Below, in pieces: positions 664-48,477 of a DNA stretch of 49,788 nucleotides; within the stretch, counting starts at the first letter, position 1; each line of letters opens with the position of its first letter. Source of the DNA: Escherichia phage LL5; the sequence record NC_047985.1; one strand, written 5' to 3'. Under the pieces are notes generated by a model. It searched no databases. It was not told the DNA's origin and worked only from the letters and a program-made list of their open reading frames with translations. The position numbers and the translations under genes were made by a program.

Positions 664-1107
664 ATGGAACAAATGACAAGTAAAGAGTTTTGCGAAAAAT
701 TGCGTGAAGCAGCAAGAGCGGCGGCTACAGGTGAGGCGATCAAGTTGCCAGTTGCCTACATCACAATGCACGTTCAGGCAGAGGACGCAAAGAAGCTAAA
801 TTCCTCATACATTCGCACGATCATGAATCGTGTTCCAGAAGTAAAAGAGGTTGGATCTGTAAGCGTCAAGAAAAAGACAAGCGATGACGGCGCGGAATAT
901 TACGAGATCGCAATCAATCGTGACACAAAGCGCCGCATCGTAACAACTAATGACCTTCCGGCAATCAAAGAGCATGAACGCGAAAAACTGGTTGAAAAGA
1001 TTATGCGCATATCGCCGGACTTCTCACACCTGGACGATGAAAAGGCACTTGTTGCAATGCGAGCGGTTGCCACGTTCAAAGATCTGATTAAGGAGATCTC
1101 AAAGTGA
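664..1107 (+). CDS. hypothetical early protein (147 aa)
   Basis: ORF with AGAGG SD; tightly follows previous gene. Confidence 0.6.
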   Translation: MEQMTSKEFCEKLREAARAAATGEAIKLPVAYITMHVQAEDAKKLNSSYIRTIMNRVPEVKEVGSVSVKKKTSDDGAEYYEIAINRDTKRRIVTTNDLPAIKEHEREKLVEKIMRISPDFSHLDDEKALVAMRAVATFKDLIKEISK

Positions 1108-1211
1108 AAACATTCGCCTTTGTCGCTGCAATGTGGTGTGTTGTTATTGATAGTCCTGGCGTGGCGCTGGTTGTGTTAGGTCTTATTTTGTTGGGGGTGT
1201 TTGATGAATAA
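1104..1211 (+). CDS. small hydrophobic peptide (35 aa, GTG start)
   Basis: GTG overlaps upstream stop (GTGA), AGGAG 8 nt upstream; predicted single TM helix. Confidence 0.35.
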   Translation: MKTFAFVAAMWCVVIDSPGVALVVLGLILLGVFDE

Positions 1212-1317
1212 GAAACTTTTAGATCATGCAGTGCTGTTCTTTATCGCTGCTGCTGGATTTTCGCTGTTGTCAATTGCTTTTTTAATACTTGCTTTTGCCG
1301 TGTCAATGCTGAAATGA
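1204..1317 (+). CDS. small hydrophobic peptide (37 aa)
   Basis: ATG preceded by GGGGG; hydrophobic core LFFIAAAGFSLLSIAFLILAFAV. Confidence 0.35.
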   Translation: MNKKLLDHAVLFFIAAAGFSLLSIAFLILAFAVSMLK

Positions 1318-17141: not shown

Positions 17142-17574
17142 CTATTCGATCCGAGAATTTCATGGCAATGTTGACAAATGGATCGAGCAAGTAGAAAGCG
17201 GATTGAATGATGTGATTCAGATTTTTGGTGAAAAGGTTCACGGCGCATTAGTTGATATTGCGCCAGTGGACACAGGCAGATTCAAAGCCAGTATGCAGAT
17301 CACAGCAAACAAGCCGCCTCTTTACGCGCTCAATCAATATGATCCTGATGGTGAGAAAACAAAGGCGGAAGGTCGCAGGACGCTTTATGCTTTATTGCAT
17401 GGCGGCGGCGCTATTAAATCAATATACTTTTCCAATATGCTGATTTACGCTAATGCTCTTGAATATGGTCATTCAAAGCAAGCGCCAGCGGGTGTATTTG
17501 GTATCGTTGCGATCCGGTTGCGCTCTTACATGGCGGAAGCGATAAGGGAGGCGAGAAAGAAAAATGCACTATGA
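17134..17574 (+). CDS. tail completion protein (HK97 gp10-like)
   Basis: VDTGRFKAS near N-terminal third and ALEYGHSKQAPAG C-terminal motif. Confidence 0.55.
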   Translation: MADYSIREFHGNVDKWIEQVESGLNDVIQIFGEKVHGALVDIAPVDTGRFKASMQITANKPPLYALNQYDPDGEKTKAEGRRTLYALLHGGGAIKSIYFSNMLIYANALEYGHSKQAPAGVFGIVAIRLRSYMAEAIREARKKNAL

Positions 17575-18087
17575 ATTATCTGTTGCGGCAAGAATGGCGC
17601 TGGCTCAAGAATACGAAAGCGAATATATGATCGCTTATGAAAACGTTGAATTTACTCCACCAAAAGGCGGAGGCATTTGGCTTAAATATGACTACAAAGA
17701 AGCAGATACAATAATTCATGATCTGAAAAGGAAATGCATTAGCTATATTGGAATGGTTCAGATCGGAATTGAATTCCCGCCAGGCTCAGGAATTGATAAG
17801 GCTCGCAAGCTGGCAAAAAATATTGCTGATTTCTTTGAAGATGGTAAAATGATCTGAAAAGGAAATGCATTAGCTATATTGGAATGGTTCAGATCGGAAT
17901 TGAATTCCCGCCAGGCTCAGGAATTGATAAGGCTCGCAAGCTGGCAAAAAATATTGCTGATTTCTTTGAAGATGGTAAAATGCTTGCGAATGGTTATATT
18001 TCAGAAGGTGCAAAAGTGCATCCAGTTCAGAAATCAGAATCAGGCTGGTTTTATCCAGTACGTTTTTATGTTCGTTATGATGGTTAA
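17564..18087 (+). pseudogene. tail terminator-like gene split by a perfect 131-bp tandem duplication
   Basis: ORFs 17564-17857 and 17884-18087 share MVQIGIEFPPGSGIDKARKLAKNIADFFEDGKM; removing one copy restores a 130-aa ORF. Confidence 0.6.
17718..17982 (+). repeat. perfect 131-bp direct tandem duplication (2 copies plus shared ATG)
   Basis: 17718-17848 identical to 17849-17979 by eye. Confidence 0.9.
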
Positions 18088-42133: not shown

Positions 42134-42358
42134 ATGAGGGACTTTCTTTTAATGGCGCAAAACTCTTTCGGAGGTGCAACGGTAGTTGGATCTTTTACTG
42201 GTGAGTTTTTGCTTGCACTTGCTACGTTTATTTTGTTCGCTATTTTCGGCTGTTGGGGCGCATGGCTGAAATGGCGTGATAGTAAAGCGATCCGAGAGGC
42301 TTTAGATTCAGGGGATTTAAAAACAGCGCTTAATCTACGGCAGAAAGAGAGGGTATAA
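42134..42358 (+). CDS. holin (dual-start, two TM segments)
   Basis: GAGGA SD; dual-start Met pattern MRDFLLMAQ; two hydrophobic helices; directly upstream of endolysin. Confidence 0.7.
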   Translation: MRDFLLMAQNSFGGATVVGSFTGEFLLALATFILFAIFGCWGAWLKWRDSKAIREALDSGDLKTALNLRQKERV

Positions 42359-42798
42359 TGACAATCAAGAAAGGTATAGCCGCCACCGTCACAGGGGCGG
42401 CTTTAATGTTGGCATCGCCTTTGATTGAAGAAATTGAGGGCGTAAAGTATAAGCCTTACAAGGATATTGCTGGAATCTGGACGGTATGCCACGGCATTAC
42501 CGGAAAGGATGTGATTCTTGGAAAGGAATATACCAGGAGAGAATGTGACGCGCTATTAGCAAAGCATATGAAAGTAGCGGCTGACGCTGTTGATAAGGCG
42601 GTTAATGTTGAAATTCCTTTATCAATGCGAGCGGCTTTATACTCATTTACTTTCAATGCTGGTACTGGTGCGTTTCGTAAGTCAACCATGCTGAAAAAGA
42701 TCAACAATGGTGATCTATGGGGCGGTTGTGGCGAGCTATGGAACTGGACATATTACAGGAACCCTAAAACGGGTAAAAGGAAAAATCAAGAGGATTGA
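42358..42798 (+). CDS. endolysin (GH24 lysozyme, possible N-terminal SAR anchor)
   Basis: catalytic region EEIEGVKYKPYKDIAGIWTVCHGIT; N-terminal Gly/Ala-rich weakly hydrophobic segment. Confidence 0.9.
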   Translation: MTIKKGIAATVTGAALMLASPLIEEIEGVKYKPYKDIAGIWTVCHGITGKDVILGKEYTRRECDALLAKHMKVAADAVDKAVNVEIPLSMRAALYSFTFNAGTGAFRKSTMLKKINNGDLWGGCGELWNWTYYRNPKTGKRKNQED

Positions 42799-47731: not shown

Positions 47732-47752
47732 TTTTAACTATTCGTGCTATTT
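47732..47752 (-). promoter_or_regulatory. conserved box copy 13 (- strand AAATAGCACGAATAGTTAAAA)
   Basis: upstream ORF reads through the box in frame (C-terminal NSTNS) and stops at its TAA. Confidence 0.65.
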
Positions 47753-47901
47753 ACAGCGATAAACGGATATCCGGTTAAATCTGCGTTGCGGTATCTGGCA
47801 GACCTTACCCAACAGCCCGACTTACTCATAATCAACGCGTTTTTGTGGCGAAGGTTTACGCGGTAAATCCTTCCTGTTTTGATGTTTTTGAAATAGGTCA
47901 T
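47734..47901 (-). CDS. hypothetical protein (55 aa)
   Basis: GAGG SD; ATG overlaps stop of upstream gene. Confidence 0.4.
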   Translation of the reverse strand: MTYFKNIKTGRIYRVNLRHKNALIMSKSGCWVRSARYRNADLTGYPFIAVNSTNS

Positions 47902-48131
47902 AATTTAACCTCATGATATTCTATGAATTCTTGCACATATGCGCATTCGCGCGGCGACTCCTGGCCTTTTAGAACTTCACAGCCACCATTAAACAGATAG
48001 CAATGCTGGCAAATGTTGCCGCCTACGTTTTCCTAAGCGATCTGAATTCCGGTACACAAACCGCCACCAAACCTATGAGGAAAATCGTAAGCCTGGCAGC
48101 GGCACGTTACTTGATGCCGCTTTCTGGTCAT
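47898..48131 (-). CDS. small Cys-rich protein interrupted by an in-frame TAG (amber) codon
   Basis: ATG overlaps upstream stop; TAG at 48033-48035 after 32 codons; frame continues 44 codons with no start to TGA that overlaps next ATG. Confidence 0.4.
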
Positions 48132-48400
48132 TAAATGTTCTCGCTGATAAATTTGATTACTTCACGAAGATGTTTTTCATCTTTGATAGTTGCTGGCAAT
48201 TCTTCCTTAACTTCTTGTTTCAGGTAAACGTTGCCGTTCCAGGTAAAAGAGCCATCATTGTTAATCAGGTAATAGCAAAGCCATTCGCAATCGTTATCCG
48301 CTTCCCAAATGCAAAGGATATCGCCATTCCCGAAATCCTCAACGCTTAACTTAATGCCACGCTTAACAGCAAAGTTAGTAGTTGTTTTTGATACCATCAT
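48131..48400 (-). CDS. hypothetical protein (89 aa)
   Basis: GGAG SD; 74 nt downstream of box copy 14. Confidence 0.5.
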   Translation of the reverse strand: MMVSKTTTNFAVKRGIKLSVEDFGNGDILCIWEADNDCEWLCYYLINNDGSFTWNGNVYLKQEVKEELPATIKDEKHLREVIKFISENI

Positions 48401-48456: not shown

Positions 48457-48477
48457 TTTTAACAAAAAGTGCTATTT
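48457..48477 (-). promoter_or_regulatory. conserved box copy 14 (- strand AAATAGCACTTTTTGTTAAAA)
   Basis: TAG is stop of ORF 48472-48684; GCATAAT motif in downstream region. Confidence 0.7.

What the first reader, a model, noticed from the sequence alone, without database searches (positions are those of the whole stretch)
47898..48131. In-frame amber (TAG) codon inside a tightly packed Cys-rich small gene
A - strand ORF starts at an ATG overlapping the stop of the upstream gene (48129-48131) and ends at a TGA overlapping the ATG of the downstream gene (47898-47900), but it contains a TAG at 48033-48035 after 32 codons. The 44 codons after the TAG have no start codon of their own and encode a Cys-rich sequence (…CQHCYLFNGGCEV…), so the two halves look like one 77-codon gene. 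Possibilities: a nonsense mutation (phage stocks with amber mutations are common laboratory material), a pseudogene, or stop-codon readthrough. This TAG is unrelated to the TAGs of the conserved boxes.
Basis: seen in the sequence. Interest (0 to 1): 0.5.

Follow-up and report, generated by a model that had tools for sequence, protein, structure and literature searches.

The report
Amber nonsense mutation in phage LL5
A small, conserved, cysteine-rich accessory gene of coliphage LL5 carries a single-base change that turns a glutamate codon into a stop codon; this is an ordinary recent knockout mutation, probably masked in the suppressor-carrying lab strain used to grow the phage, and not a new recoding mechanism.

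Summary
On the minus strand, an ATG at 48131 opens a 77-codon frame that ends at a TGA (47900-47898) and is interrupted by a TAG at 48035-48033 (codon 33).

The window is Escherichia phage LL5, a Tlsvirus. The gene is the orthologue of TLS gp78 (phrog_5016). Read through the TAG, it matches that family end to end.

- **Sense codon elsewhere:** every close relative has GAG (Glu) at codon 33, so LL5 differs by one G-to-T change. No other copy in the roughly 38 loci I translated has a stop.
- **No recoding:** LL5 has no tRNA genes, and TAG is the normal terminator of 9 of 73 conserved genes.
- **Recent event:** the family is under purifying selection in both halves, and LL5's distal half is undecayed.
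- **Present in the reads:** an independent re-assembly of LL5's own 454 reads also has TAG. The two assemblies differ only by homopolymer indels and a 131-bp finishing artefact, never by a substitution. A sequencing error is therefore unlikely.
- **Host context:** LL5 was grown on DH5alpha, whose supE44 suppressor inserts Gln at UAG, which would give a full-length E33Q protein there. LL5 also plaques on BW25113, so the gene is dispensable in the laboratory.

Verdict: an ordinary amber mutation in a non-essential gene of unknown function. Low interest.

The parts
47898..48131 (-). Interrupted 77-codon gene, the LL5 orthologue of TLS gp78 (phrog_5016). It encodes a small Cys/His-rich protein.
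   Evidence: Searches give the sequence. One search gives the end-to-end phrog_5016 match (E = 2e-41). Searches show a single CDS in the same slot in Sephi301i, Stevie and TLS.
48033..48035 (-). In-frame amber codon TAG at codon 33. Orthologues have GAG (Glu), so this is a single G-to-T change at window position 48035.
   Evidence: alignment; codon survey of about 38 loci; same base in the Logan re-assembly of LL5's own reads.
48036..48131 (-). The 32 codons translated in a non-suppressor host. They carry the conserved N-terminal module CxCxAYxFPHRxxGGxC (C10, C12, H19, C26).
47901..48032 (-). The 44 distal codons, translated only if the UAG is suppressed. They hold the most conserved block of the family (C41, C44, C51, V53, G56, E58, C63) and show no further disabling changes.
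47734..47901 (-). Downstream 55-aa gene (LL5 gp82, equivalent to TLS gp77). Its ATG overlaps the TGA as ATGA, and it has its own GAGG seven nucleotides upstream.
48131..48400 (-). Upstream 89-aa gene (LL5 gp84). Its TAA overlaps the ATG of the interrupted gene by one base.

Best explanation
This is a genuine, evolutionarily recent nonsense (amber) mutation, GAG (Glu33) to TAG. It sits in a conserved but non-essential early-region accessory gene of phage LL5, the orthologue of TLS gp78 (phrog_5016). In a non-suppressor host, translation stops after 32 residues. That removes four of the eight conserved Cys/His residues, so the product is probably inactive. The downstream gene has its own Shine-Dalgarno sequence and can still be initiated. 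In DH5alpha, the strain LL5 was propagated on, the supE44 tRNA-Gln(CUA) would read the UAG and give a full-length E33Q protein. The mutation would therefore be partly or wholly masked there and could drift to fixation. Shown: the lesion, its uniqueness, its presence in the reads, the propagation host and the phage's growth on BW25113. Inferred: that suppression actually occurs at this codon, that the truncated peptide is inactive, and whether the mutation arose in the wild or during laboratory passage.
For: - **Identity of the genome:** the window is Escherichia phage LL5, shown by exact matches of flanking proteins to HOT39_gp81, gp82 and gp84 on a 49,788-bp contig.
- **Sense codon in relatives:** GAG in Sephi301i, Stevie and TLS, with flanking bases identical. 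Glu appears in nearly all of about 38 loci and none has a stop. By tblastn, 529 of 530 phage records cover at least 80% of the protein. Glu is found in 10 of 11 cluster representatives.
- **TAG allele absent elsewhere:** the TAG 18-mer occurs in 0 viral contigs, against 7 for the GAG version. All 15 hits in metagenome and genome contigs are chance matches.
- **Selection and age:** pN/pS is 0.30 in the N-terminal half and 0.18 in the C-terminal half. LL5-private changes are only K2T, E33*, L40I and one synonymous change, so the event is recent.
- **One domain:** the AlphaFold2 model is a single compact domain with pLDDT 90.9. The conserved Cys/His residues lie on both sides of the stop.
- **Real in the reads:** the Logan re-assembly of SRR9134807 is 100% identical over the gene, TAG included. 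Over about 11.7 kb, the two assemblies differ by 0 substitutions, 4 single-A homopolymer indels and the 131-bp duplicate.
- **No recoding:** there are no tRNA genes, and TAG terminates 9 of 73 conserved genes.
- **Host:** LL5 was propagated on DH5alpha, whose supE44 inserts Gln at UAG efficiently. A natural family member has Gln at this position (L039).
- **Dispensability:** LL5 plaques on BW25113, which was the reference host with EOP 1.0.
Against: - The record comes from 19.9x 454 data and has other lesions: a 131-bp artefactual duplicate and a likely homopolymer frameshift in the endolysin.
- The Logan assembly uses the same reads, so it is not an independent sequencing of the phage. I could not inspect per-read allele counts.
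- No experiment shows suppression at this codon, or any phenotype.
- That BW25113 lacks a suppressor rests on my own knowledge of its genotype.
- No comparison of plating efficiency between DH5alpha and BW25113 is reported.
Confidence: 0.78

Rival explanations
1. Base-calling or consensus error: the phage really has GAG and the T is an artefact of low-coverage 454 sequencing.
For: Sequencing was 454 FLX Titanium at 19.9x, assembled with Newbler. The record has other defects. An untrimmed 131-bp contig-end overlap splits the tail-terminator gene. A change from A5 to A4 shifts the endolysin C-terminus, whereas 10 relatives and TLS have 163-164 aa. The T allele is a singleton among all relatives.
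Against: An independent de Bruijn re-assembly of the same reads gives the same T. Over about 11.7 kb the two assemblies disagree only at A-homopolymer indels and never by a substitution. The error mode of this dataset is therefore indels, whereas the TAG is a clean, length-preserving substitution. From general knowledge, 454 errors are overwhelmingly homopolymer indels.
Confidence: 0.12
2. Programmed stop-codon readthrough or recoding: the TAG is a regulated feature that yields a short and a long product.
For: The TAG is followed by a purine (UAG-G), a context I recall as favourable for suppression. A few natural family members consist of the N-terminal module alone (P0183, P0196, P0201). The distal half is intact.
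Against: The stop is not conserved in any orthologue. There is no tRNA in the genome. TAG is an ordinary terminator in 9 of 73 genes. The RNA downstream of the TAG is not significantly structured, z = -1.5.
Confidence: 0.02
3. Adaptive loss or down-tuning: the knockout was positively selected because the protein is costly or counter-productive in the ETEC or K-12 hosts used. On this reading it was not merely tolerated.
For: LL5 grows well on the K-12 strains DH5alpha and BW25113. The mutation is fixed in the sequenced population, since both assemblies have it.
Against: There is no direct evidence. In DH5alpha the allele would be suppressed, which weakens any selection for loss. The family is under purifying selection everywhere else. 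A single private nonsense change is what drift through plaque-purification bottlenecks would also give.
Confidence: 0.07

Closest known systems
Classical amber (UAG) nonsense mutations of coliphages, suppressed by supE (glnV44/supE44) hosts
   Same: A single-base change turns a sense codon into UAG. The gene product is truncated in sup0 hosts. Gln insertion is expected in a supE44 host, and LL5's propagation strain DH5alpha is one.
   Different: The mutation was not isolated deliberately. It lies in a non-essential gene, so it is not conditional-lethal: LL5 plaques on BW25113. Suppression at this codon has not been tested.
TLS gp78 / Stevie gp51 / phrog_5016 family of small Cys-rich phage proteins (function unknown)
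   Same: Same genomic slot, same length, an end-to-end HMM match, and all eight conserved Cys/His residues retained in the read-through translation.
   Different: LL5's copy is the only one with an in-frame stop. It also has the private substitutions K2T and L40I.
Stop-codon-reassigned (TAG-recoded) phages with suppressor tRNAs
   Same: Only the superficial feature of an in-frame TAG inside a conserved gene.
   Different: There is no tRNA. There is a single in-frame TAG in one gene. TAG is used as a true stop in 9 of 73 conserved genes. The host is E. coli with the standard code.

Membership tests
Amber nonsense mutation (simple point mutation of a sense codon) | Orthologues carry a sense codon at the homologous position | tested here: met
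   GAG in all close Tlsvirus relatives. GAG or GAA in nearly all of about 38 loci, with one Asp, one Met and one Gln.
Amber nonsense mutation (simple point mutation of a sense codon) | One nucleotide substitution from the ancestral codon, with reading frame and length otherwise unchanged | tested here: met
   GAG to TAG. The flanking 40 bases or more are identical to relatives, and the gene is 234 bp as in Sephi301i and Stevie.
Amber nonsense mutation (simple point mutation of a sense codon) | The variant is present in the sequenced DNA and is not an assembly artefact | tested here: met
   The Logan re-assembly of SRR9134807 has TAG. Assembly disagreements are only homopolymer indels. Per-read counts were not inspected.
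Amber nonsense mutation (simple point mutation of a sense codon) | Suppressor-dependent production of the full-length product | not testable with these tools
   Inferred from propagation on DH5alpha and its supE44 genotype.
Programmed readthrough / stop-codon reassignment | The in-frame stop is conserved among orthologues | tested here: not met
   No orthologue has a stop. The TAG 18-mer is absent from viral contigs, and hits elsewhere are chance.
Programmed readthrough / stop-codon reassignment | A suppressor tRNA is present, or TAG is avoided as a terminator | tested here: not met
   Zero tRNAs. TAG terminates 9 of 73 conserved genes.
Programmed readthrough / stop-codon reassignment | A stimulatory RNA structure lies downstream of the stop | tested here: inconclusive
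   The 171-nt fold has z = -1.5, which is not distinct from shuffled sequences.
phrog_5016 / TLS gp78 protein family | Full-length profile match | tested here: met
   E = 2e-41, residues 2-77 against profile positions 3-79 of 79.
phrog_5016 / TLS gp78 protein family | Conserved residues C10, C12, Y15, F17, P18, H19, R20, G24, C26, C41, C44, C51, V53, G56, E58 and C63 | tested here: met
   All are present in LL5's read-through translation.
phrog_5016 / TLS gp78 protein family | Synteny: upstream of the gp77 and gp76 homologues in the minus-strand early cluster near dcm | tested here: met
Decayed pseudogene | Several disabling lesions, or relaxed selection downstream of the first stop | tested here: not met
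   There is only one lesion. The distal half has 1 private non-synonymous change (L40I) and 1 synonymous change.
Zinc-binding mini-protein | Tetrahedral Cys/His metal sites | not testable with these tools
   Eight conserved ligands and a confident compact model.

The most novel reading that the evidence does not exclude
The family is modular. The N-terminal CxC-H-C module can act alone, as in natural N-module-only members such as P0183, P0196 and P0201. LL5's amber codon would then create a host-dependent switch: the short form in sup0 hosts, and short plus long (E33Q) forms in supE hosts. That switch would have been selected and not merely tolerated. LL5 would then be a ready-made conditional allele for finding the function of a widespread, structurally novel Cys-rich phage protein family with 243 clusters and no PDB fold relative.
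Probability: 0.05. Interest if true: 0.35.

Novelty: already known. Interest (0 to 1): 0.12.

Why it matters
The biological weight is small. It is one nonsense mutation in one laboratory-propagated phage. There are three practical consequences.

1. **Record quality.** The LL5 GenBank record (MH491968), and the RefSeq record derived from it, need curation. This gene is a disrupted orthologue of TLS gp78. The tail-terminator gene is split by an artefactual 131-bp duplicate. The endolysin C-terminus is probably frameshifted by a homopolymer error. LL5 is sold in a commercial product (PreforPro), so an accurate reference has some value.
2. **A caution about hosts.** Propagating phages on supE44 cloning strains such as DH5alpha can mask amber mutations and so let them accumulate.
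3. **A free genetic tool.** LL5 is a natural knockout, and possibly a suppressor-conditional allele, of a conserved and uncharacterised Cys/His-rich phage protein family with no known fold relatives. It shows that the gene is dispensable on E. coli K-12.

Tried and rejected
- **Suppressor tRNA or recoding.** ARAGORN found no tRNA, and TAG is a normal stop in 9 of 73 genes. Rejected.
- **A second amber codon in the TLS gp03 orthologue.** One search flagged one. It is an artefact of the TLS annotation. In the alternative frame the A/G difference is a synonymous Leu change, and two short ORFs fit better.
- **The TAG allele in other collections.** There were 0 hits in viral contigs. Eight metagenome and 7 genome-contig hits were all chance 18- to 24-mers that do not encode the gene.
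- **LL5's own annotation.** The accession is not in the held collections, and the 32-aa fragment is not in the protein collection. What the record calls gp83 is therefore unknown.
- **Logan contig across the endolysin.** Three look-ups found no exact product, and the holin is too widely shared to reach the LL5 contig.
- **Polarity on the downstream gene.** The RNA fold is not significant and the promoter and terminator scan is at background level, so no claim is made.

Full report
**1. The observation.** Reading the minus strand confirms every coordinate in the finding.
- The ATG at 48131-48129 shares one base with the TAA of the upstream 89-aa gene.
- Thirty-two sense codons follow, and then a TAG at 48035-48033.
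- Forty-four more sense codons follow, ending at a TGA (47900-47898) that overlaps the ATG of the next gene as ATGA.
- The distal part has no in-frame ATG or TTG. Its only in-frame GTG is 12 codons from the end.

**2. What genome and what gene.** Megablast places the window among TLS-like Drexlerviridae of the genus Tlsvirus.
- Exact look-up of the flanking proteins identifies the window as Escherichia phage LL5, 49,788 bp, with the flanking genes being HOT39_gp81, gp82 and gp84.
- The read-through translation matches phrog_5016 end to end, E = 2e-41.
- Sephi301i and Stevie annotate one 234-bp CDS in exactly this slot. TLS calls its 246-bp orthologue gp78.
- The two halves are therefore one gene.

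**3. The codon in relatives.**
- In an alignment with Sephi301i, Stevie and TLS, the only difference around the stop is G to T, that is GAG (Glu) to TAG.
- By tblastn, 529 of 530 phage records with a homologue cover at least 80% of the protein.
- In about 38 loci translated in frame, position 33 is Glu (GAG or GAA) in nearly all, with one Asp, one Met and one Gln. The only stop is in LL5's own reads.
- The 18-mer spanning the TAG is absent from IMG/VR, while the GAG version occurs 7 times.
- The 15 hits in the metagenome and genome collections are chance matches, of the order expected for an 18-mer in databases of this size. None encodes the gene.

**4. Recoding is excluded.**
- The window has no tRNA or tmRNA genes.
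- TAG is the terminator of 9 of 73 genes conserved with TLS, against 48 for TAA and 16 for TGA.
- A genome-wide scan of TLS proteins against the window flagged one more in-frame TAG, in the 'gp03' orthologue. This is an artefact of the TLS annotation. In the other frame the difference is a synonymous TTA/TTG Leu change, and two short ORFs fit the sequence.

**5. Is the base real?**
- The genome announcement (PMC6606918) reports 454 FLX Titanium sequencing at 19.9x coverage, Newbler assembly, closure from identical contig ends, and re-opening to match TLS.
- The record has defects of exactly the kinds that history predicts.
  - A perfect 131-bp tandem duplicate at 17718-17982 splits the tail-terminator gene.
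  - A change from AAAAA to AAAA shifts the last 18 or so codons of the endolysin. Ten relatives and TLS have 163-164 aa, against LL5's 146.
- The Logan collection holds an independent de Bruijn assembly of the same run, SRR9134807.
  - In it the tail terminator is a single intact 130-aa ORF, so the duplicate is an artefact.
  - The interrupted gene, however, is 100% identical to the window, TAG included.
- Over about 11.7 kb the two assemblies differ at four single-A homopolymer positions and at the 131-bp duplicate, and at no substitution.
- This dataset's error mode is therefore indels. A clean, frame-preserving substitution reproduced by two assemblers is most probably real. I put the residual probability of a sequencing error at about 0.12.

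**6. Age and selection.**
- Among Tlsvirus orthologues, pN/pS is 0.30 for codons 1-32 and 0.18 for codons 34-77. Both halves are therefore protein-coding and constrained.
- LL5's private changes are K2T, E33*, L40I and one synonymous change. The distal half has not decayed, so the nonsense mutation is recent.

**7. The protein.**
- A profile search of 1.84 billion representatives finds 243 clusters, mostly of 70-110 aa and nearly all spanning both halves of the profile.
- Sixteen positions are nearly invariant or invariant: C10, C12, Y15, F17, P18, H19, R20, G24 and C26 before the stop, and C41, C44, C51, V53, G56, E58 and C63 after it.
- That gives seven Cys and one His, enough for two tetrahedral metal sites. 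This is inference; it was not tested.
- AlphaFold2 gives a confident single compact domain, pLDDT 90.9 and pTM 0.76.
- Pfam, NCBIfam, PADLOC and a PDB sequence profile give nothing.
- Truncation at codon 33 removes four of the eight putative ligands and the most conserved block.
- A few natural members keep only the N-terminal module, and one has two tandem copies. A residual function for the 32-aa peptide therefore cannot be excluded.

**8. Host context and mechanism.**
- DH5alpha carries supE44, a tRNA-Gln(CUA) that inserts Gln at UAG efficiently (PMC6920384).
- In the propagation host the gene would thus be read through to a full-length E33Q protein. Gln occurs naturally at this position in one family member (L039).
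- Selection against the mutation would therefore be relaxed in DH5alpha.
- LL5 also plaques on BW25113, the reference host of the Keio screen. From my own knowledge of its genotype, that strain has no suppressor. So the gene is dispensable under laboratory conditions.
- The downstream gene has its own GAGG seven nucleotides before its ATG, and the intervening RNA is not significantly structured. I make no claim about polarity.
- Whether the mutation arose in nature or during laboratory passage cannot be decided from the data at hand.

**9. Comparison with what is known, and verdict.**
- This is a textbook amber nonsense mutation in a non-essential phage gene, in a phage grown on a supE host.
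- It is not programmed readthrough, not a reassigned code and not two separate genes. It is also not a long-decayed pseudogene.
- It is not novel in kind, and interest is low (0.12).
- The useful by-products are curation flags for the LL5 reference record, and the recognition that LL5 is a natural knockout, possibly conditional, of a widespread and structurally unclassified Cys-rich phage protein family.

Noticed in passing
window 17718-17982 (+), within 17564-18087: A perfect 131-bp tandem duplicate (2.0 copies, 100% identity) splits the tail-terminator gene (TLS gp41 orthologue, PF13554) into ORFs of 97 and 67 aa. The Logan re-assembly of the same reads has one copy and an intact 130-aa gene. 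The duplicate is therefore an untrimmed contig-end overlap left in when the circular assembly was re-opened.
   Followed up: yes
window about 42774, in the endolysin ORF 42358-42798 (+): The A-run is AAAA, against AAAAA in TLS. This shifts the endolysin C-terminus, giving 146 aa against 163-164 aa in TLS and 10 other relatives. The downstream DNA is still conserved in the old frame. This is probably a 454 homopolymer error. The LL5 read-based contig over this site could not be retrieved.
   Followed up: partly
window 1105-1317 (+): The TLS 'gp03' orthologue contains a TAG in LL5. The A/G difference is a synonymous Leu change in another frame. Two short membrane-like ORFs fit better: a GTG-started one of about 35 aa from 1105, and an ATG-started one of 37 aa from 1204. 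The TLS gp03 annotation is probably wrong.
   Followed up: partly
window 48457-48477 (-) and 47732-47753 (-): These are copies of the conserved box AAATAGCAC-NNN-T(T/A)G-TTAAAA, upstream of gene blocks on the minus strand. They correspond to the 21-nt direct repeats (aaATAGCACnnnTTGnTAAAA) described for TLS, whose function is unknown: promoter, UP-element and stoperator roles have been proposed. They are unrelated to the amber codon.
   Followed up: partly
window 48060-48131 (-), compared with TLS L003:1063-1140: The first 20 or so codons of the gene are highly divergent between LL5 and TLS, with about 15 non-synonymous differences. The remainder is nearly identical. TLS also has an HNH endonuclease (endZ) immediately upstream where LL5 has an unrelated 89-aa gene. 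This looks like a mosaic or recombination junction inside the gene.
   Followed up: no
proteins P0183, P0196, P0201, P0055: Some family members keep only the N-terminal CxCxAYxFPHRxxGGxC module, followed by an acidic tail. P0055 carries two tandem full copies. The family may therefore be modular.
   Followed up: no
L038 (IMGVR_UViG_2974728900_000001), 490-820: This contig's copy of the gene is broken across three reading frames and is flanked by an inverted duplicate of its 5' part. It is probably another low-quality or chimeric assembly.
   Followed up: no
L012 and L013 (Logan SRR9134807) against window 46494, 15807, 16420 and 19155: The Logan assembly of the LL5 reads has four single-A deletions in A-runs relative to GenBank. 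One of them splits the major capsid gene into 273 and 51 aa. This illustrates the 454 homopolymer noise in the dataset.
   Followed up: yes
phage record OR786094.1: The closest full-length relative over the left half of the window is deposited as 'Streptococcus phage MBBL140', with host Streptococcus agalactiae. It is a typical Tlsvirus at 94.8% identity. Fifteen to 22 'Campylobacter' phage records also match. These look like host mislabelling or contamination.
   Followed up: no
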